Shown one piece after another: positions 33,882 through 59,539 of a stretch of 64,000 nucleotides of DNA. The translations under genes and the position numbers were made by a program. Origin of the DNA: Sphaeroforma arctica JP610 (taxonomy: Eukaryota); assembly GCF_001186125.1 (NCBI RefSeq), contig NW_014040387.1, forward strand, positions 1 through 64,000. The letters are read 5' to 3'. The first letter of the stretch is position 1. Each line of letters begins with the position of its first letter. Below the pieces are notes generated by a model. It did no database searches, was not told the DNA's origin, and was given only the letters and a program-made list of their open reading frames with translations.

Positions 33882-34427
33882 ATGGCTGCCAAAGTAGACG
33901 CAAAGGTTGTCAAGGCCTGTATCAAGGAGGGAGGCAAGAAGGGCCAGGATCTATGTGGTATGGCTGATTTGGGATCTATCAACTTCTTCAACGTCGTGAT
34001 CGATGCCGCCGAGGGACGTGATGACTACCTTGACGAGTGCATGAAGGGAGCCAACATGGAGGTAGATGCCGAGGCCGAAGACCGCAAGGGTGGAGCCCAC
34101 GGTCTGGGAAAGTTGTTCTATTCCGCTGGAACCGATCGTTTGGCGTTCCTATGCCACGTACCTGCTGCTCTAAGTAAGGAGAAGGATGTCACCAAGGAAG
34201 ACTGGTTGAACGCTGTGTTGGCCTCGGTTGACGGAAAGGTTACCGAGACCATCTCCGACGAGCTTATCCGTGGAGAGGCACTAAAGGAGGGAGAGAAGTT
34301 CCCATTGAAGATGCGAGATACTGCTATCAATGCCGGTTTCGCTTTCTTGCGTGAGAAGGGTCTTGTGCTGGATGACGAGTCTAGTGACGACTGTGACTAC
34401 GCCGAGGCCGCTGGTATCGAGTGGTAA
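33882..34427 (+). CDS. Intronless conserved hypothetical protein, 181 aa, acidic tail
   Basis: ATG at 33882 after an AT/AC-rich leader, strong codon bias, and globular-looking blocks KEGGKKGQDL.GMADLG, EDRKGG..G.GK.F.SAG and KFPLKMRD.AI..GFAFLREKGL. I recall similar uncharacterised proteins from various protists and algae, but this is not verified. Confidence 0.88.
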   Translation: MAAKVDAKVVKACIKEGGKKGQDLCGMADLGSINFFNVVIDAAEGRDDYLDECMKGANMEVDAEAEDRKGGAHGLGKLFYSAGTDRLAFLCHVPAALSKEKDVTKEDWLNAVLASVDGKVTETISDELIRGEALKEGEKFPLKMRDTAINAGFAFLREKGLVLDDESSDDCDYAEAAGIEW

Positions 34428-42880: not shown

Positions 42881-43530
42881 CACAGATTGACTTGCTATAA
42901 CAAGCAGGCATGGTCAGAGAGATCGTAGAACACACCAACTAATATGCAGCACCCCTCACTCCTGCAGATGGACACACGAATAAAATATAAAACCCAAACG
43001 CAAGCCACAAACCAATACAGATTGACTTGCTATAACAAGCAGGCATGGTCAGAGAGATCGTAGAACACGCCAACTAATATGCAGCACTCTTCACTCCTGC
43101 AGATGGACACACGAATGAAATATAAAACCCGAACGCAAGCCACAAACAATATAGATTAACTTGCTATAACAAGCACGCATGGTCAGTGAGATCGTAGAAC
43201 ACGCCAACTAATATGCAGCNNNNNNNNNNNNNNNNNNNNATAAAACCCGAACGCAAGCCACAAACAATATAGATTAACTTGCTATAACAAGCACGCATGG
43301 TCAGTGAGATCGTAGAACACGCCAACTAATATGCAGCACCCCTCACTCCTGCAGATGGACAAACGAATAAAATACAAAACCCAAACGCAAGCCACAAACA
43401 ATACAGATTGACTTGCTATAACAAGCACGCATGGTCAGAGAGATCGTAGAACACGCCAACTAATATGCAGCACTCCTCACTCCTGCAGATGGACACACGA
43501 ATGAAATATAAAACCCAAACGCAAGTCGCA
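42881..43530. repeat. 135-bp tandem repeat, at least 4-5 copies, spanning an N gap
   Basis: acagattgacttgctataacaagca.gcatggtcagagagatcgtagaacac.ccaactaatatgcagcac...ctcctgcagatggacacacgaat; period 135 (42885 vs 43020). Confidence 0.92.
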
Positions 43531-44807: not shown

Positions 44808-46140
44808 CTGGCGGGGTTCACTCGACCTCGCGTTTTCTGCGCAGTAAACATGAAGCGCCTCTATACATTCCCGTAGTGCACCGGAAGACCACAAAGCGTC
44901 TAATACACTCAGAGTTAGAAGTATATAACTACTATCATACGCTAACATTCCAAGGCTTCTATAGTAGAAGCCCAATAAGCCACTCCGCATACATACCTTT
45001 CACAAAGCGTCTAATACACTCAGGGTTGGAAGTATATAACTACAATCATATGCTAATATTCCAGGGCTTCTATAGTAGAAGCCCAGTAAACCACTCCGCA
45101 TACATACCTTTCACAAAGCGTCTAATACACTCAGGGTTGGAAGTATATAACTACAATCATATGCTAATATTCCAGGGCTTCTATAGTAGAAGCCCAGTAA
45201 ACCACTCCGCATACATACCTTTCACAAAGCGTCTAATACACTCAGAGTTGGAAGTATATAACTACAATCATATGCTAACATTCCAGGGCACCTATAGTAG
45301 AAGCTCAATAAACCACTCCGCATACATACCTTTCACACCCTTCCACTGCTTGCCCACCACTAGCCTCTCAAAGTGCCAGGACAGAATGGTCCTGACCTCC
45401 GTGTTCAGGACCTTGGACTCGCTTTTGAACTTCCGGGTCAGATTGTCGCAGCTCTTTTTGAACTTGGCCGCATCCTCGGCACTCTCGACATATGGTAAAG
45501 CTTTGGCTGTTGTCGGTGGCGTAGGCGATCGCGTCGCACCAGTGTTGCGGTTCGTCGTGGTCGGTGGTACATTCTCCAACACAGGCACGTCTGTAGATCC
45601 ACTATTCTGTGTATCTGTTTCGTCGCTAGCACTAGAGTTCTGGCTTTTCTCCGGCTGTGTAGAGCCACAGGTGTTGGTGTTAGATGTGCTGCCTATGTCT
45701 GCGTTTGTTTTAGTGTCGATACTTGTCTTGGGCTGGCTGTCCGTCTTTGCAATGGCTGTGCTAATCGTATCTATATTTGGTGAGTTCTCCACCGGTGCCT
45801 TGCTCTCCTCTATCGTGTCTTTACGGCCCGTATTAACATTGGGTATAATACTCTCAGCTGTGGCTGGTAATTCATCTTCGACTCCTCTGGACATACTAAC
45901 CGCAGGTACTGCTGCTAAAGGAACCACAATAGCAGATCCAATCATCGGCACCACAGAATCGCTCTTCTCAGTAGGTGCACTGATTTCCGCAGGTACAACA
46001 GTCTCTGCTTCCGTACCAACGCTGTTTTTTACGGTTAGTTCACTGGGTTGACTGGAACTAGGACCATCGCGCACACTTTCTTCAATCCGCGGGCTCGAAT
46101 GTGCGATACTCGCTGTGAGATTAGCAAAAGGAGCGGACAT
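44808..46140 (-). CDS. First two exons of an unknown gene or decaying pseudogene (S/T-rich disordered N terminus, then a helical segment); downstream exons at ~43.9-44.5 kb look disrupted
   Basis: Exon 46140-45330 (MSAPF...GKQWKGVK, donor gtatgt) splices in phase to 44899-44808 (DALWSSGALRECIEALHVYCAENARSSEPRQ, donor gtatag). A further coding-like fragment lies at 44146-43901, with stops and frameshifts in between. Confidence 0.55.
44890..45337. repeat. 111-bp tandem repeat x4; each unit is one complete 97-nt GT-AG intron plus 14 nt of exon (minus strand)
   Basis: cacaaagcgtctaatacactc...gcatacataccttt starts at 44890, 45001, 45112 and 45223. On the minus strand each unit reads ag|gtatgtatg...gtattag|acgctttgtgaaag. 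Confidence 0.9.
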
Positions 46141-46548
46141 TCTCCAGTTTGTGACTTCCACATCAAAGTGAAGGTGACAGTCAACTGATACACTTATAAA
46201 TAAACAGAAGTGTGGACCTGTCTCCTAAGTACATAACTACGTAAGACTGTGGAGTGCGGAACATAAGTAAATATGTTGCAACTTGGACCTCCCTAAAGTA
46301 TTTATATTTACCTCTCTGTAGCTAGAGCATTAAAAAACGCTCTAAACCAAACAGCCCGCCAGAGAGTCTCCTGAATCAAACAACCACTGCTCTATTTACC
46401 CTGTTTTTACATACTGGTAACTGGTAACTGGTCGTTGTGAAACTTGGCGCGTGTATTCTGGTAAAAACCCTTTATCTTTTATTTCAAATAATATAATTTT
46501 ACTTAAGAGTCCTTTTTTATAATTGCGGTTGTGCAACGGTTATGAACT

Positions 46549-46637
46549 CCGCAATATCTTCGGATGCGCAGGTTCGAGTCCTGCACCTGTCATAAAATTT
46601 GCAGGTTGGCCGAGTGGTCTAAGGCGTTGTGTTTAGG
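46549..46637 (+). tRNA. trnL(UAG): Circularly permuted tRNA-Leu(UAG): 3' half 46549-46592, 7-nt spacer, 5' half 46600-46637
   Basis: Rejoined 82-nt tRNA: TGCAGGT TG GCCGAGTGGTCTAAGGC G TTGTG TT TAG G | C CGCAA T ATC TTCG GAT GC GCAGG TTCGAGT CCTGC ACCTGTC A. The acceptor stem pairs at 6 of 7 positions (one G-U). It has a Leu-type D loop, anticodon stem TTGTG/CGCAA, a long variable arm, a perfect T arm and discriminator A73. Confidence 0.88.
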
Positions 46638-46645
46638 AAGTAACC

Positions 46646-46653
46646 TTTTTTTT
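46646..46653 (+). terminator. RNA polymerase III terminator (T8)
   Basis: Eight consecutive T residues, 8 nt after the tRNA 5' half and immediately after the taacc trailer. Confidence 0.75.
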
Positions 46654-47347
46654 ATTGATACAGTATTATATTTAGCTGCTTATTTCGGCTGTTCTAAGAA
46701 AATGCGAAACCTATTGCAGTATTTGTCGGTACTGGAGTTTATTCTCGCACTTCTGAACATATTTTACATACATACATCTGCGCAGGTTGCGGTTGTATTA
46801 TCTTCGACTCGCGCAAGTTGGTATTGTGATCCGAGGCATCATGATTGCGGCACCTTCAAGCAGTGACATACTCACCTATTTGGAGTCTCACTTCGTGTGA
46901 ACATATCAACAATCCACCGATAAATGTAATCGTGACACCTATATAGAATGACCATATAGTTTATTCATTGAATGCACGAAAGTGTTCCCGACACCCGTAT
47001 ACAAGGCGTGACTGAAATATATCCACAATCCCGTACAACCTCTAACCTGGAGAGTATATATGGCAGATTGGCAGACTTAGCAGCACTGCAGCTGGTAGCA
47101 TATATACTGCATCACAAATTCTCATCAGTCATCATACTCGAATGCAAAGGTATGTCATTGATTTTTCCGACCAATAATATTTGGCTAAAAAATCGGTATG
47201 TACTCTGAAAAGTGTACACGAGTTCGTAATATTTTGAAAAGTTTTGGGTTTTAACCTTGTGCATGTAGCGATTTGTTGTATTATGAATATGTGTATTGTA
47301 TTGAGAAGCGCATCTGGCTTCAGAACTTCATTCCCTATAGTGTAGAT

Positions 47348-52253
<4,906 letters not shown>

Positions 52254-52949: not shown

Positions 52950-55900
52950 TGGGGTGGGTTCTGATCTTCAACGCTTATTCAATATGAAATGGTACTTGAA
53001 CCCAGCCTCCAAAACTACTATGCGGCAAGCAACATTAAGAACACTTGACTGTTGGTGGTGAATTCTTCGAGCTCGCTAGCCTTCTTGACTAAGCCAATTA
53101 GTTCATCACTGACCGAGTTAGGATTTTCGGGGGCTATAGTCCCATCAAGGTTACGGACAAAATACCCGTTGCCCTCCTTGCTTGCTATCTTGTATGATCC
53201 TCCGTATGGTGCTGTCATTTTATTCATCTCGCCTGACCATTGTGTATGTGCTAATTGAGGTTGAATGTGTCTTGGTGTACTCTTGATAACCTGTCAGCAA
53301 CTTCATTGTCTTTGCCTGGCACGTGTATGATGGTGAAGTGATGATGAATTTTTTTTGCTATTCAGTTTGCGAGCATGGGATGCAGTGTTTGTTGCTTGTT
53401 CATCTGACATAACGCTTTGTGATCTGTCCACAATGCTATATCACCTCTTTTGATTTATTCTGAAAAGTGATCTAGGCTGTATACCAGCGCTAGTAGCTCT
53501 TTTGTGTTTGTCCCATATCTCTGTTGTGCAGGGTTTAGGCCATTTGAGTAATAGAGTATATCTCCTCTGACTCCATCTACGATTTGGAACAGATACGTCA
53601 CTTGCGCCATTTATGATCTGAAACGGTACTCCAACTACTGGGTACGCCAATGTTGCTGAGCATGCAATGGCATCTCTGAGTTCTTCCTATTTCTTAATGA
53701 GCTCAGGTGTCCAAAGATTGGCTACATTCTGACTCATTTTTCCTTCCATGAGATTGCGGAAGTGTTTCGTTATGTATGCAAACTGAGGTATGTGGTCTCG
53801 CATGTAGTTTGCGCGTCCGACTGCTCGATGTAGGTCATGTTTGGTTCTTGGCAGTGGTCAGTCAATCATGCGTTTTGTTTTTCAGGGTCTGTTTTGAGCC
53901 CTTTTGTTGTAACTTTGATGCCTAGTATATTGACTGTCTTGACTGCAAACGCACACTTGTTGTGATTCAGCCTGAAGTTGGCAGCGTCAAGTCTACTGAT
54001 GACTTCACGTAGTGGTTGTCTATGTTCTTCTTCTGTCATACTGGCAATGACTATGTCGTCCACATATACTTGTACTCCAATAATGTCAATGAGGAGGTTG
54101 GCCATCACTCGTTAAAGGTGTGCTGTTAGCGAGTGTAGTCCAAATGGAGCTGACTTGAACGAGTATTGTGCCCCTTTCCATGAAAAAGTAAAGAAGTGTT
54201 GGCTATTTTCGTGTGCACGAAGGTGGTAGAAGAATCCTGTCAAGTCCAATTCGGAAAAGAATTTTGCACCTTTTAGGTTGTGGAGTGCTTCCTTTATTTT
54301 CGGTAATACGAATTTGTCTTGTTCATGTTGATATTTGACTTCTCTTGAGTCTAAACATGTGCGTACTTGCTTTAACAGATCCGTCTGTTCAAAGTCCCCT
54401 GTGGATAGTAAAGGTAGATTTACTTGTGTGGGTGTTGTTCGTGTATATGTGGCTGAGCTTGGCCCATTTTCGAACATCGTCATCTGTTTGTGGTATGTAC
54501 TTGGGTGGAACAAAGTTCACTTTAGCGTGACGAATGTTCTTGGCTTTGACCTCCTGACTTGGTATCTCCACTACTGATCCTGATAGATTGCTGTGGACAT
54601 ATGGTGGGATCTGACCGTTCTGGTCTGACAAGTCGGAGAGTGATTCTCTGAATCCTTCTTGTTCATGCTCAGGGCCTTCTTCTGTGGTGTGAGAAGTGAT
54701 TCTCATCTGGCATCTGTTGGTATGAGTGGATTGATTATCCCCGCTAGATATATGCCTAAGTATGGTGGAATGTCCATACCTAATGCAATTGGTGATCTCT
54801 TGTCTGGGAGGTCGAGTACCTCAAAGCAGTTTGAAGTTTTTCTACCGCCGTAATTTTTATCATATACTTCTGTGGAACCTATGCGTTGTACTCGTGCATC
54901 TGATTGTGCTAGCTGTATGTACCCAGGTTGTGCTTTTACGGACAAGTATAGTTCAGTTACTACAGTGCGATCCATACATGAGCGTTGTGCTTCTGAATCT
55001 ACTAGTGCGTTGTATGTGATGCTATTGATTTGTATGTCTATGTGCAATCATTGGTCTCGTGGGTTAAGAAGTAAAGAAATGGGTGTGTAAGCAATATCAT
55101 TTGCATTTACTAACAACGTTTATTCATCAGTGTGTGTATTCACAATATATACTATGTTTATCATGTTAGCTTCCGACCACCAAGCTTTTCATAGTTCCTC
55201 ATCCATCTCCTGCACCTTGTTGCCATTTGTAATAGCCAACTGGTCGATATGGTTGGGTTGAGGTTGCTGCGCTGCTCGAACTGCTGCTTTCAGATGGTTG
55301 CTTTCGTCTTTCTTGGGGCACAAACTGAATGTATGTGGGGAAGGGTCCATACCTCAGTGTGGGCAAGGTCTTGGTCCTCGTGGTGTTGGGGCGTGAGTAC
55401 CCTGTCTATAGGACCGTCTCTACCTTGTCTTCCTTGTTGTCCACCACCTTTAAGCTGGTCCTCCCCTCTGGGTGGACCCCCTGAAGGTATGTCCACTCGT
55501 GGACGAGTGACTCTCTGGTCGGGGACGGGTGCGGTTCTCGCTCGCTTGTTGTCACGTTTGCGATTAGCCTGTGTTATAGTTGCTTGTCTGCTCATGTCTT
55601 CAGTGAGTTCATGGAATACTTTTCTTATATGTCAGACAAGTGTCCACTGCTACCATCAGGCTTTGTTTGAGCCTTGATCAGTCTATCTGTTTCAGCTTGC
55701 AGTCCGTACATGACTAGTGCTTGGGAACGGGATGCTTTGAGGAATTGCCTATTAATGGACTCTCTCTCAGTGCCCTTGTATCGCTTCTCTAACTCAAACA
55801 TTGTGCGGCGCAATCGTGCTCCTCGTACTTCAACATTCATGCGAGTGTCATAGAAGTCGTTGAGCCACTTCTCTAGTAGATAGTATACTAGGGTGCGACG

Positions 55901-56776
55901 CAGGTTGTCAATGATCAATATATTGTCTTCCACATCAGTGAAGTCTTTCCAAAGCTGTTTAGAACTACGTATATTTTTGAGTGCAGTGTGCGATACCTCC
56001 GTTGCGTCTGTCTGTCTGAGCAATTCTTGTACGAGTGATAGGTACTGTACTACTGACATGTTTGTGCTCGCGAACAAGTCTTTTGCTACAGATACAAACT
56101 CAATTTTATCACGACTGTCAGCCATGCTGACGTACTTGTGTGTTGGCCACTTGGGGTTCTCACTCATCTTGAGTAGCTTGTTCATCTTTGGTTCTGAGAT
56201 TTCATCCCCTACATGAGATCTAATTAGAGTTAGCTCGCTCATAAAGCCACTGATTGCAATACACTCATCGTAATCACTTTTATCACCGTCCTTCATAGCT
56301 TTATTGTGTAGCTCTGACAACCACTGATCTAGTACTGGTATCAATCTGTTGGGTTGTTGGGTGTAAACTGCCTTGCGGAGTTTGTGGAGTGCTCGTATAT
56401 CAATGGGGTCGTCCGCCTTTTGTGCATACAACTTGTCCACTAGTATATCTACAATGTAGTCATTGCCGTCATAGGTGGTTTTGTTAATGGCTATGTTATA
56501 CTTACTCATTGCTGGCTCTAATGGAGCTCTTGCTGGTGTGGGCTCATCGTCCATGTGCATCGCTCCTTCTCCATTGTGTGGAGTAGAGGTGCGTAAGGAG
56601 ACCTGGGAGACTAGCATTGTGTCAGTTTGTACTGGTCTTGTTCTGGCAGTACGACATATGCTCCCACGTGTGTGCCCACGAGTTGAGCTCACTTGTGTGC
56701 GTAGACTCCTTCTTGCTGCTCGTGTTCTTTGGTAGGGCGCAGACGTCTTTGACTGATATGCTTGTCCAGTGTACAT
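52950..56776 (-). mobile_element. Decayed Ty3/gypsy LTR retrotransposon (gag, protease, RT, RNase H, integrase C-terminal remnant); no LTR pair identified
   Basis: Gag-like ORF 56776-55625; broken zinc knuckle CPH*GMDPSPHTFSLC at 55365-55318; protease ALVDSEAQRSCM (55047-54703); RT AKFFSELDL..., APFGL, YVDDIVI, KCAF (54330-53866); RNase H TDHKAL and HVPGKDNEVADRLSR; GPY/F-like APYGGSYKI (53227-53018). There are many stops and frameshifts. Confidence 0.92.
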
Positions 56777-59539
56777 TGCAATTTAGAGTTCTTGTCGCGT
56801 GATGTGCGCGTAGTGTGCTATTTTCCGTTATTCTCTAGCTTCAATAAACTCTTTCTATAAGTCCACACGTTTTTATATAGTAAAAATCAGTAGTTCACCT
56901 TTATGTTGGGCCTCTTTGTGGTGTTCAGTGTAGTAGTCTGATGTAGTGTCTTGCACTTGATCTGCTCAACTTGACGTTCTCTGTGACACCTGGGTTTATG
57001 TTGAGAGTTTTTGGGGTTAATATATACACTTTGGTTTATCTCGGTTTATTCGTTAACTTATGACACACTTGGTTTCTTGTGTGAACCCAGTTTATCGTGT
57101 TGACAACCTTGGTTTTTGGTTTGTATTTCGGTTACTATTAATTTATATTTGTCTCGTGACAATGTACCGCACTTCTTTGATTTAGGTAGTTGTTTGAGTA
57201 ATGGTGTCTTGTGGCCTAATGTCTGACCGTATGTGTTTGTGAATATGAATTATACGTCACTCCATTACTTGTAGTCTGTCTGTGTCTGTCTTTGTTGACC
57301 GTTGTATTCGTTGTTTATCCAACATGTATCGATCATGCGGAATGGATTGTTCCGGTTTGCTTCTACTTGTGGTATTATGTCGAGATGTTGTTTCTCTTTT
57401 GTCTTCGATTGCAGTGTGAAGTCGGCATGAAGTGTCTTGTTTGTAAGAGGCTTCTTCGTAGTTTCACTTTTTGTTTTCTATTGTACATTTTTAAAATAAT
57501 AATAATTTATGTACTGGTTTATTGTATTGTGATGTGTAATCTTGCTTGACCTGGTGCCTTGTTTTTTAGTATATGAATGTGTTGTGTGATCTCAATGTTA
57601 TCCTTCGATCTTGCTCTTGTACGCTAATTCACGTATTGGTGTGTTTGTTTTTCTTACCTGTATTGTCTCTGGAGTTGAGATTTAAGTGTCTTATTTGTGT
57701 TTCACTAAGATTGTCTCTGATATGGAGATGTTAAGTGATGCTAGTTTTGATTTGCGAAATTGGTTGTTTATTTCGTGATATTGGCTCTTGTGTTATTTGA
57801 ATGTGAGTGTTTCATGACATGTGTGTTATTGTACTTTTTACTTCAGTTCTCTGAAGTGGAGATGTATTTCCCACTTTATGTCTTTCCTTGGTCTTGGTTG
57901 TGTTGATGTGGATATGTACTTCATTAACTCATGCATGCATATGTGCTCTAATCTTGTTGTGTGGCCTGTGTATATCCGATTTGCTGAATCTCAGTGTATG
58001 GCTCATTTATTCTTGGCTCGTTCGATTAATTATCTATGATGTGTGTCTATTGTAGATTTATTGCTGCTCTGTTATCTCTTGTGTTCGCGTAGCGTACCTC
58101 TGGATTTGAGGTTTATCGTCTGAATTTTAGTGATGCTTAAGATCTCAATTTTATCTGATGTACAATTGCAATTGTTCTCTGATCTATTCTCAACTTGTCA
58201 GGTCTTTTATATTCGAGTTATTATCTTCGACTACTATTTTATGCCATTCCAAGTTGTAAGTGTCTAAGGTACAATATCGATTTCGATGTCGTGTTTTGTC
58301 TCAGTATTGATTCTGATGATATGTATAATTTCGAGATATTTATAAGTTGCCGCCTCGTTTGCGTTACCACGATGTCTTGCTATTTCTATTTGGCTTCGGG
58401 TCGTGTGTAACCTTCTCTATCTCTATGAACAATGTGTTGGAGATATTAAATCTTTTGTATATACGATTCTCTGTGTAACCGAGCCGTTGTGTGGTGTCCT
58501 GGTGGTGAGGATATTCTTTTGTCTGTTTGCGATCACAGGTTTCAGTACTAGAACTTTTGTCTCCAATATTGATACTATACTCACCTTGACACTGTCCCCA
58601 ATATTGATATTATATTCACCTTGACACTTTCCACCGAACTTCTTTGTCTCTTCCTCCAAAGTTGACTTTGTATATCTCTAGTTTATGGGCCGGTATCTTA
58701 TTGTGTTGTATTATGGCAATTACAGCACTGTCAAAATTATAAATAAAGAATAACACTATGGTTCTGCGAACCTTGTTTGGGGCGTATGCTTGCCTTTCTC
58801 AGAGAAGAAGCTTAGTCTTTCTTCCCAGTTCTTTTTTTTCTTGAGAGGACCTCACTTGGTCTCTTGATATTTGATTGTCAGCAGTGGCTCGTCTCTGAAG
58901 TAGACAACCTCTTTCTTGTTCCTCGTTATTGGTCCTCTTATGGTGTCTTCTATACTTATTTGAGTATTGGGGTACCTATGTCTGTTTCGACTGGTGTACA
59001 ACAGAGACTTTTCTTGTTGTTTGACTTACCGTAGTAAGGATATTGTAAAAAATGTAGAGTTTGAGAGTAGCTTACAAGATACGACCAATGGAAACAATAG
59101 ACCTCTTCTCAAATGCGAATCTCTCAGCTAGGTAAAAAGTCCCAGGCTGGAGGACTCGCATCGAGTCTTTGTTTGTGTTTGTTGTTTTCTACACTAGACT
59201 CAATTATTACTTAAGTGTTTCTCTCGCACGCGGGAGTCCCGGTATCATCTACCGGTATACCCGCTATATTTTTGATCACTTTATCATCAGAAATATTGGA
59301 TCCTAGATCCAAAGCTCAGTATTGGATAATCCTGGGTTTTGGGTTTAGTATTGGCTCTTTCGATAATCCGGTCCCTGTATGCTACATGACAATTATCACA
59401 ATCGGCCATAAATGATAGGAAAATTTGTGATAATGATCATACAGTCGGTGATGAAAATTGGAGAATGCTACTCAGTTTATTTACATACCACAAATATCCA
59501 TACATACAATACCTGACACAGAAGATGCAACTGACATGG

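What the first reader, a model, noticed from the sequence alone, without database searches (positions are those of the whole stretch)
46538..46653. Circularly permuted tRNA-Leu(UAG) gene with a BHB-like leader/trailer junction in an opisthokont-like nuclear genome
Seen: the tRNA 3' half (position 38 to A73, 46549-46592) precedes the 5' half (positions 1-37, 46600-46637), with only taaaatt between them. The halves complement each other in the acceptor stem (GCAGGT/ACCTGT) and the anticodon stem (TTGTG/CGCAA), and the break is exactly at the canonical 37/38 intron site. The flanks build a splicing-endonuclease substrate: leader GGTTA (46538-42) pairs with trailer TAACC (46641-45); leader TGAA (46543-46) pairs with U32-U33-U34-A35 as a 4-bp central helix that includes the U32:A anticodon-intron pair; there is a 3-nt bulge CT|C at the 3' splice site and a relaxed 5-nt bulge GG|AAG at the 5' site. 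A T8 terminator follows directly. Established: permuted tRNA genes are known from Cyanidioschyzon merolae, prasinophytes, chlorarachniophyte nucleomorphs and Thermofilum pendens; in C. merolae they mature through a circular intermediate opened at the acceptor-stem spacer. Inference: the neighbouring genes look opisthokont, and I know of no permuted tRNA in that lineage, so this may be an independent, undescribed origin that standard tRNA scanners miss.
Basis: partly seen in the sequence, partly recalled or inferred. Interest (0 to 1): 0.93.

Follow-up and report, generated by a model that had tools for sequence, protein, structure and literature searches.

The report
Back-to-front leucine tRNA in animal relative
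Sphaeroforma arctica, a single-celled relative of animals, writes a leucine tRNA gene back half first, in several copies, and the RNA would likely have to be cut, closed into a circle and re-opened to work, a layout I found reported only for algae, an algal virus and one archaeon.

Summary
Observation confirmed. The tRNA 3' half (46549-46592) precedes the 5' half (46600-46637), split at 37/38, with leader/trailer pairing and a T8 run. Rejoined, it is a clean tRNA-Leu(UAG); no such hit arises in 20 shuffled windows. The host is Sphaeroforma arctica (neighbouring DPH1 exon 99% identical), an ichthyosporean holozoan. Contigs of two public runs show four sequence types across the spacer, all back-to-front, about nine copies by depth. 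One type has two compensatory acceptor-stem changes, and some units lie in tandem. No ordinary-order joint was listed, but that is not proof of absence. Expression, circularisation and charging are untested. My literature searches found no permuted tRNA in opisthokonts. This scan noted permuted tRNAs earlier in other genomes (diatoms, protists), none labelled opisthokont. Verdict: most likely a working type II permuted tRNA gene family, new for the animal-fungal lineage.

The parts
46492..46497 (+). TATA-like hexamer (TATAAT) in an AT-rich stretch, about 27 nt before the earliest possible start
   Evidence: sequence; role inferred; no control run
46513..46518 (+). T6 run; a Pol III transcript would have to start after it (46519 or later)
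   Evidence: sequence; inference from Pol III termination at T runs
46529..46539 (+). A-box-like element in the leader (TTGTGCAACGG); its last G lies 33 nt before G53 of the B box
   Evidence: score 8.07, top 0.08% of 126,544 window positions; ordinary short-arm tRNAs show 33-36 nt (21 of 27 genes); similar elements in the same register in two other flanks
46538..46542 (+). leader strand of the outer helix (pairs with 46641-46645)
   Evidence: 5 of 5 Watson-Crick pairs, pair probability 0.99-1.0; likeness of other copies begins at 46538/46539
46543..46548 (+). intron-like end of the leader: 4-nt strand pairing with tRNA positions 32-35 (A46546:U32 is the anticodon-intron pair), then two bulge bases before the 3' splice site
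   Evidence: identical in a low-depth contig of organism C (record 19)
46549..46592 (+). tRNA 3' half, C38 to A73: anticodon stem 3' strand, long variable arm, T arm with B box (46571-46580), acceptor 3' strand
46593..46599 (+). 7-nt intervening sequence (acceptor loop of the predicted circular intermediate); differs in length and letters between copies
46600..46637 (+). tRNA 5' half, positions 1-37, anticodon TAG at 46634-46636; position 1 is T, mismatched to C72
46638..46645 (+). trailer: three unpaired bases after the 5' splice site, then the strand pairing with the leader
46646..46653 (+). T8, Pol III terminator-like
   Evidence: likeness of other copies ends at 46651-46653
48989..49327 (+). 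exon of the neighbouring DPH1 gene used to place the host (context, not part of the tRNA gene)
   Evidence: 99% to SARC_03387 of Sphaeroforma arctica JP610, 89% to Creolimax CFRG2790T1; Pfam PF01866 for the full protein

Best explanation
This is a leucine tRNA gene of Sphaeroforma arctica written 3' half first and present in several copies, which is likely transcribed as one short RNA and likely matured by cutting, circularisation and re-opening. Shown: the order of the halves, the 37/38 break, the leader/trailer pairing, the T8 run, the host, and further copies in the same order. Inferred step 1: RNA polymerase III starts just after the T6 run (about 46519), placed by an A-box-like element in the leader (46529-46539) and the B box 33 nt further on. 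The two boxes are thus in ordinary order and spacing although the gene's own A box lies behind the B box. Inferred step 2: the transcript folds into a cloverleaf closed at the acceptor end by the 7-nt spacer, with leader and trailer standing in for an intron. The splicing endonuclease cuts at G37 and before C38 and a ligase joins them, giving an 89-nt circle, as shown for Cyanidioschyzon (PMC3978253, section 6). Inferred step 3: RNase P and tRNase Z remove the spacer and CCA is added, giving tRNA-Leu(UAG) for CUA and, by wobble, CUG. Open step: position 1 is U opposite C72; it is either tolerated (my estimate about 65%) or replaced by a templated G (about 35%). Likely origin: head-to-tail duplication of an intron-containing Leu gene, with loss of the outer halves but retention or rebuilding of an A box upstream.
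For: Rejoined halves give a canonical class II tRNA; 0 of 20 shuffles give any wrap-around tRNA. Splice geometry is met by 11 of 63,252 positions. In run X1 four contigs cover the spacer, all with 3' half before 5' half; their depths (241.5, 143.5, 52, 51.6) add up to the whole depth there (488.7) against 52.5-63.2 on the unique flanks, about nine copies; run X14 repeats this (119.4, 62.9, 33.3, 33.1; total 248.7; flanks 30.6-36.1). The 143.5 type changes pairs 6:67 and 7:66 on both sides of the spacer and keeps both paired, while spacers differ freely (about 3, 6 and 7 nt) (read from tables 3 and 4). Likeness between copies starts at 46538/46539 and ends at the T run (table 7). Two other flanks carry A-box-like 9-mers in the same register (scores 6.3 and 7.1, worked by hand from the matrix; top 0.17% and 0.10%; the window's own 3.8, top 0.5%). 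The clearly decayed copy (12 differences, A58 lost) has none. No joint from 46637 back to 46549, the mark of an ordinary-order gene, is listed in any of 7 runs laid, of which 4 gave contigs. Spacer length and type II junction fall in the known range (PMC3978253, Table 1).
Against: No RNA evidence: no spliced or circular junction was seen in any run laid. The acceptor stem lacks the 1:72 pair in every type seen. The 4-bp central helix has about 0.01 probability in the computed ensemble. At least two copies look broken (record 3 decayed; record 7 a 5' half without acceptor strand or 3' half). Contig depth is not a true copy number. The record with the compensatory changes has only 24 letters of the 3' half, below the tool's 31-letter bridging rule. 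The three A-box-like flanks may share descent, so they are not independent trials; the matrix came from 27 tRNAs of two unidentified contigs, 2 of them out of register; and the organism C flank scores weakly (0.9, top 1.8%, shifted one base).
Confidence: 0.8

Rival explanations
1. A dead or selfish family: a fragment of an old tandem duplication of an ordinary intron-containing Leu gene that has been copied around (by gene conversion, or as a small Pol III retro-element) while ordinary genes elsewhere make the leucine tRNA.
For: 1:72 mismatch in all types; one decayed copy and one lone 5' half; copies begin near the presumed start and end at the T run, as retro-copies would; an A box and B box in ordinary order are what a SINE needs. 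Ordinary genes could be hidden by the tool's filter or cut tables.
Against: Compensatory changes in two acceptor pairs across the spacer, a freely varying spacer beside a near-invariant tRNA body, and a splice geometry that a SINE would not need. No ordinary-order joint is listed. Low-depth contigs of organism C keep the same order with other spacers (records 19 and 20; weak, depth 3-5).
Confidence: 0.12
2. The functional phase is the other one: in the tandem arrays the 5' half of one unit and the 3' half of the next form an ordinary gene with an intron of about 280 nt, or the halves are spliced in trans, and this locus is an array end or orphan.
For: Joints from 46651/46652 back to 46538 show units in tandem, about 250 nt apart (record 10 of X14 is 339 nt long).
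Against: That 'intron' would contain the T run (at least T6) eight bases after the splice site, which should stop Pol III. The window copy has unique flanks on both sides. A 1,198-nt contig of X17 runs into leader plus 3' half with no 5' half listed in the 1,143 nt before it. The cis fold needs no partner.
Confidence: 0.05
3. Assembly artefact: a collapsed repeat put the halves in the wrong order.
For: The unit is repeated and no single contig spans the locus flank to flank. A collapsed array at this locus cannot be excluded.
Against: In two runs from different studies the unique left flank runs 24 nt into the 3' half and the unique right flank follows 28 nt of the 5' half, without mismatch. 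In X1 a 79-nt contig identical to the window bridges the spacer with 34 and 38 letters on either side (one spacer difference in X14). The nearest assembly gaps are at 43220-43239 and 48534-48553.
Confidence: 0.03

Closest known systems
Type II (37/38) circularly permuted tRNA genes of Cyanidioschyzon merolae, e.g. Leu(CAG) with a 9-nt intervening sequence (PMC3978253, Table 1, sections 4-6, 8)
   Same: 3' half before 5' half, junction at 37/38, short intervening sequence, bulge-helix junction made by leader and trailer, downstream T stretch, class II tRNA
   Different: Host is a holozoan. About nine copies by depth and tandem units, where the review's table lists single genes (two for Gly). 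An A-box-like element lies in the leader, whereas the review proposes a TATA-driven, TFIIIC-independent start because A and B boxes are inverted. The 1:72 pair is not encoded. Expression was shown there and is untested here.
Permuted tRNA genes of Ostreococcus, Micromonas, Bathycoccus, prasinovirus BpV1/2, chlorarachniophyte nucleomorphs and Auxenochlorella (PMC3978253 Table 1; passages of PMC3673656, PMC4494063, PMC12633428)
   Same: Mostly type II with a relaxed hBH junction; Leu and Ser often affected
   Different: All from the green lineage or its viruses; Leu(UAG) is not among the 34 genes of the 2014 table
Permuted tRNAs of Thermofilum pendens (PMC3978253 Table 1)
   Same: Reversed halves, very short intervening sequence
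   Different: Archaeal, junction at 59/60, CCA encoded
5'-edited mitochondrial tRNAs repaired by Thg1-like proteins (Dictyostelium; passages of PMC6471195, PMC4284800)
   Same: Encoded mismatch at the top of the acceptor stem with an intact 3' strand that could template the repair
   Different: Known from mitochondria; PMC4284800 (2014) says such editing had not been tied to any nuclear-encoded tRNA apart from G-1 of tRNA-His. No RNA evidence here, and a Thg1-like gene in this host was not tested.

Membership tests
Type II circularly permuted tRNA gene | 3' half upstream of its complementary 5' half on the same strand | tested here: met
Type II circularly permuted tRNA gene | Junction at 37/38 | tested here: met
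   5' half ends at G37 after TAG, 3' half starts at C38
Type II circularly permuted tRNA gene | Short intervening sequence at the acceptor end (1-74 nt known) without a terminator | tested here: met
   7 nt here, about 3 and 6 nt in other copies; range from PMC3978253 Table 1
Type II circularly permuted tRNA gene | Leader and trailer can form a BHB or relaxed hBH motif with 3-nt 3' bulge | tested here: met
   pairs verified; 11 of 63,252 positions fit by chance; the 5' side is a 5-nt loop, not a strict bulge
Type II circularly permuted tRNA gene | That motif is the favoured fold of the precursor | tested here: inconclusive
   outer helix 0.99-1.0 and anticodon stem 0.95-0.96, but central helix about 0.01
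Type II circularly permuted tRNA gene | Downstream T stretch and upstream AT-rich or TATA-like sequence | tested here: met
   T8 at 46646-46653; TATAAT at 46492-46497; no control for the latter
Type II circularly permuted tRNA gene | Exons carry ordinary tRNA consensus elements (U8, G18G19, U33, T54-T55-C56, paired stems) | tested here: met
   ARAGORN call holds at 115% threshold; exception: 1:72 is a T/C mismatch
Type II circularly permuted tRNA gene | Circular intermediate and mature CCA-ended, charged tRNA in cells | not testable with these tools
   only assembled contigs were served; no raw small-RNA reads
5'-edited tRNA (Thg1-like repair) | Encoded mismatch within the first three acceptor pairs | tested here: met
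   position 1 is T or A opposite C72 in the window type, two other intact-looking types and two organism C contigs
5'-edited tRNA (Thg1-like repair) | Mature RNA carries the Watson-Crick base | not testable with these tools
   no RNA reads
5'-edited tRNA (Thg1-like repair) | Host encodes a Thg1-like 3'-5' polymerase | not tested
tRNA-derived SINE | Many dispersed, decaying copies with target-site duplications | tested here: inconclusive
   about nine copies by depth, mostly conserved, two broken; only 30 letters of each flank were visible, so duplications could not be checked

The most novel reading that the evidence does not exclude
A close relative of animals makes its CUN-reading leucine tRNA only from back-to-front genes that rebuilt an ordinary A-box/B-box promoter in the leader, and whose first nucleotide is not encoded but written in afterwards by a 3'-to-5' polymerase: permutation in opisthokonts combined with 5' editing of a nuclear tRNA.
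Probability: 0.17. Interest if true: 0.93.

Novelty: new variant of a known kind. Interest (0 to 1): 0.76.

Why it matters
Permuted tRNA genes have been treated as a feature of small algal genomes and one archaeon, explained by a promoter that does not need the A and B boxes in order. The 2014 review notes that most eukaryotes could in principle carry type II genes yet do not. A multi-copy family in a cultured holozoan would extend them to the animal-fungal lineage and show that standard scanners miss part of a tRNA set there. The leader A box offers a simple, testable way for a TFIIIC-dependent cell to transcribe such a gene. Tandem units, intact single copies and broken copies in one genome look like stages of the duplication-and-loss model. 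The unpaired position 1 makes nuclear tRNA 5' repair directly testable by sequencing one RNA end.

Tried and rejected
No whole genome is held for this window, so no genome-wide tRNA census. Rfam on 45500-47700: 0 matches. ARAGORN with long introns gave two calls (Asn; His 45487-46592 with a 1,021-nt intron) and 15 at a 90% threshold; I treat these as noise. My first circular-tile scan used an option this ARAGORN version lacks and missed the real locus; fixed. The variable-arm row was mis-indexed and is ignored; the arm is shown. A degenerate Leu 3'-half/5'-half pattern gave 2 hits in JGI metagenomes, both ordinary tRNA clusters, and 0 in viral contigs. Sequencing runs: no RNA holder listed on record; X16, X18 and X19 gave no contig on 46300-46900, which is no evidence either way. 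An X17 contig stops exactly at A73, but it is one contig and may be a graph break. Organism C contigs have depth 2-5 and a small share, so they are a hint only. No second half-copy in the window beyond one 18-mer match at 3 mismatches for each half. The 1:72 tally on 27 ordinary tRNAs gave 25 paired; the 2 unpaired are probably my register errors. A BHB-strict reading was rejected: the 5' side is a 5-nt loop. The upstream TTGCG (46523-46527) as a relic anticodon strand was considered; the other flanks do not show it, so I do not rely on it. Thg1 literature searches gave nothing on this host.

Full report
The observation. The sequence at 46538-46653 is as described. A tRNA 3' half from C38 to A73 (46549-46592) is followed by 7 nt and then by a 5' half ending in the anticodon TAG and G37 (46600-46637). 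Neither ARAGORN on the window at default settings nor Rfam on 45500-47700 sees it. Rejoined in a script, it is called tRNA-Leu(tag), 82 nt, and passes a 115% threshold. When all 240-nt tiles of the window are read as circles, this locus is the only wrap-around tRNA, and 0 of 20 shuffled windows give one. Five leader-trailer Watson-Crick pairs, a 4-bp helix with positions 32-35, a 3-nt 3' bulge and a 5-nt 5' loop were verified; 11 of 63,252 window positions would fit that geometry. Against this, the computed ensemble supports the outer helix and anticodon stem but not the central helix (about 0.01), and T1 is mismatched to C72.

The host. A DPH1 exon 2.4 kb downstream is 99% identical to SARC_03387 of Sphaeroforma arctica JP610; the next relatives among named hits include Creolimax CFRG2790T1 at 89%. 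A second protein of the window lies on a contig of the same length (125,757 nt) and has Creolimax fragrantissima as its closest relative, 77%. The host is therefore an ichthyosporean holozoan. I built no tree; the placement rests on identity and the source label. The tRNA lies between a minus-strand gene (ORF 45292-46224, no Pfam match) and DPH1, 1.9 kb from the nearest gap.

Is the locus real, and is it alone? In X1 and X14, from two studies, the unique left flank runs into the leader and 3' half, and the unique right flank follows the 5' half and trailer, without mismatch. No single contig spans the locus, as expected for a repeat. Four contigs in each run cover the spacer, all with the 3' half first, and their depths add up to the whole depth there (488.7 in X1, 248.7 in X14). 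Against flank depths of 52.5-63.2 and 30.6-36.1 this suggests roughly eight or nine copies; the tool warns that depth is not a copy number. Reading the difference tables: one type (depth 143.5) changes acceptor pairs 6:67 and 7:66 on both strands and keeps them paired; another has a 3-nt spacer; one has 12 differences including A58 and looks dead. A further contig holds a 5' half and terminator with no 3' half in front. Likeness among copies starts at 46538/46539 and ends in the T run. Joints from 46651/46652 back to 46538 show tandem units about 250 nt apart. No joint from 46637 to 46549 is listed, but 3 loose-end rows and 22 pieces of X1 were hidden and human-like contigs are filtered, so ordinary genes are not excluded. 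Three low-depth contigs of a third organism (X20) include two that keep the 3'-half, spacer, acceptor-strand order with other spacers; this is a weak hint of conservation beyond one species. X16, X18 and X19 gave no contigs, and no run showed a spliced or circular junction.

How it is likely transcribed. The 2014 review (PMC3978253, section 5, read) argues that inverted A and B boxes cannot bind TFIIIC and that algal genes rely on an upstream TATA box. Here the leader contains TTGTGCAACGG (46529-46539), which scores in the top 0.08% of window positions against an A-box matrix built from 27 ordinary tRNAs of loci L001 and L002. Its last G is 33 nt before G53, and 21 of those 27 tRNAs have 33-36 nt at this interval (the other 6, with long variable arms, 44-47). 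Two other flanks seen as loose ends have A-box-like 9-mers in exactly the same register (6.3 and 7.1 by hand from the printed matrix; top 0.17% and 0.10%). The decayed copy has none, and the organism C flank scores weakly. That is 3 of 5 flanks clearly, 1 weakly, 1 not. The flanks may share descent. A TATAAT lies at 46492-46497 and a T6 run at 46513-46518, so the start would fall just after 46518. This promoter model is an inference.

How it is likely matured. By analogy with Cyanidioschyzon (PMC3978253, sections 6 and 8, read), leader and trailer act as an intron: the splicing endonuclease cuts after G37 and before C38, ligation gives an 89-nt circle, RNase P and tRNase Z remove the spacer, and CCA is added. 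A relaxed hBH junction at 37/38 with an anticodon-intron pair is what the ordinary eukaryotic enzyme recognises according to that review. CTG (24 of 76) and CTA (9 of 76) occur among Leu codons in six exon stretches of the window, so the product would be needed. Position 1 is T in the window type and the 143.5 type, and A in the short-spacer type and both organism C contigs, while C72 shows no listed change outside the decayed copy. It behaves like spacer. Either the mismatch is tolerated, or a G is added afterwards as in mitochondrial 5' editing. A 2014 review says such editing was unknown for nuclear tRNAs (PMC4284800, passages; PMC6471195, passages). I could test neither.

Comparison with what is known. 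The 2014 table lists 34 permuted genes in red and green algae, a nucleomorph and Thermofilum (PMC3978253, abstract and section 4 part 1; section 10 part 1 for origin models). Passages of later papers add Bathycoccus and prasinoviruses (PMC3673656), Amorphochlora (PMC4494063) and Auxenochlorella (PMC12633428). A 2026 review on photosynthetic organisms names only algae and archaea (PMC13578239, 8 passages). I also saw one passage of the Ostreococcus preprint 10.64898/2026.07.10.737489 and passages of PMC4090602 and PMC6188563. Soma 2007 and Maruyama 2010 were not read. Searches for an opisthokont case: 'permuted tRNA' (74 papers, 40 listed; from 2016 on 41 papers, 37 listed), with Sphaeroforma (0), with holozoan terms (173, 25 listed; others listed), Sphaeroforma arctica + tRNA (26, 25 listed), and with A box and TFIIIC (2). 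None of the listed titles or abstract openings reports one; a single 'permuted' hit in a mitochondrial review (PMC7194472) was not opened. Two S. arctica papers contain no 'permut' (PMC11109566, PMC6855841). The library lacks most subscription papers, tRNA databases were not searched, and no supplements were read. The scan's own notes list permuted tRNAs in diatoms and other protists (unchecked), none for this genome or lineage.

Verdict. All sequence-level criteria of a type II permuted tRNA gene are met; the RNA-level criterion could not be tested. I put 0.8 on a working permuted family, 0.12 on a dead or selfish family, 0.05 on the long-intron or trans-splicing phase and 0.03 on misassembly. 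The mechanism class is known. The lineage, the multi-copy and tandem organisation, the leader A box and the unpaired first base make it a new variant. Interest 0.76.

Noticed in passing
window 46523-46536: Small hairpin whose 5' strand (TTGCGG) is also complementary to the start of the 3' half (46549-46554) and overlaps the A-box-like element; could compete with the anticodon stem or be chance. Not seen in the other flanks.
   Followed up: partly
run X17, record 18, laid on window 46538-46592: A 1,198-nt contig of a probable RNA run, depth 190, ends exactly at the discriminator A73 with no further letters; may be a long transcript reaching a permuted unit, or a graph break.
   Followed up: no
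run X20, record 19: 87-nt contig with identical leader end and 3' half, another spacer and the acceptor 5' strand, then unrelated sequence where the D arm should begin; a broken copy, chimera or insertion.
   Followed up: no
runs X1 and X14, records 7 and 15, laid on 46606-46653: A lone 5' half with trailer and T run, preceded by unrelated sequence.
   Followed up: no
window 46594: The main spacer type has A here in run X1 and G in run X14; strain difference or collapsed variants.
   Followed up: no
window 54112-56782, minus strand: Retrotransposon-like region: a reverse-transcriptase fragment (Pfam RVT_1, E 6e-5, below the curated cut-off) downstream of a 385-aa ORF without a clear family.
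   Followed up: partly
window 33882-34427: Single-exon gene for a 181-aa protein without Pfam match, 77% to Creolimax and about 45-50% to proteins of green algae and a choanoflagellate labelled flagellar-associated.
   Followed up: partly
L001 1-1749 and L002 1-1384: Very dense clusters of ordinary eukaryote-type tRNA genes (16 and 11 genes) in metagenome contigs of unidentified organisms; not permuted.
   Followed up: partly
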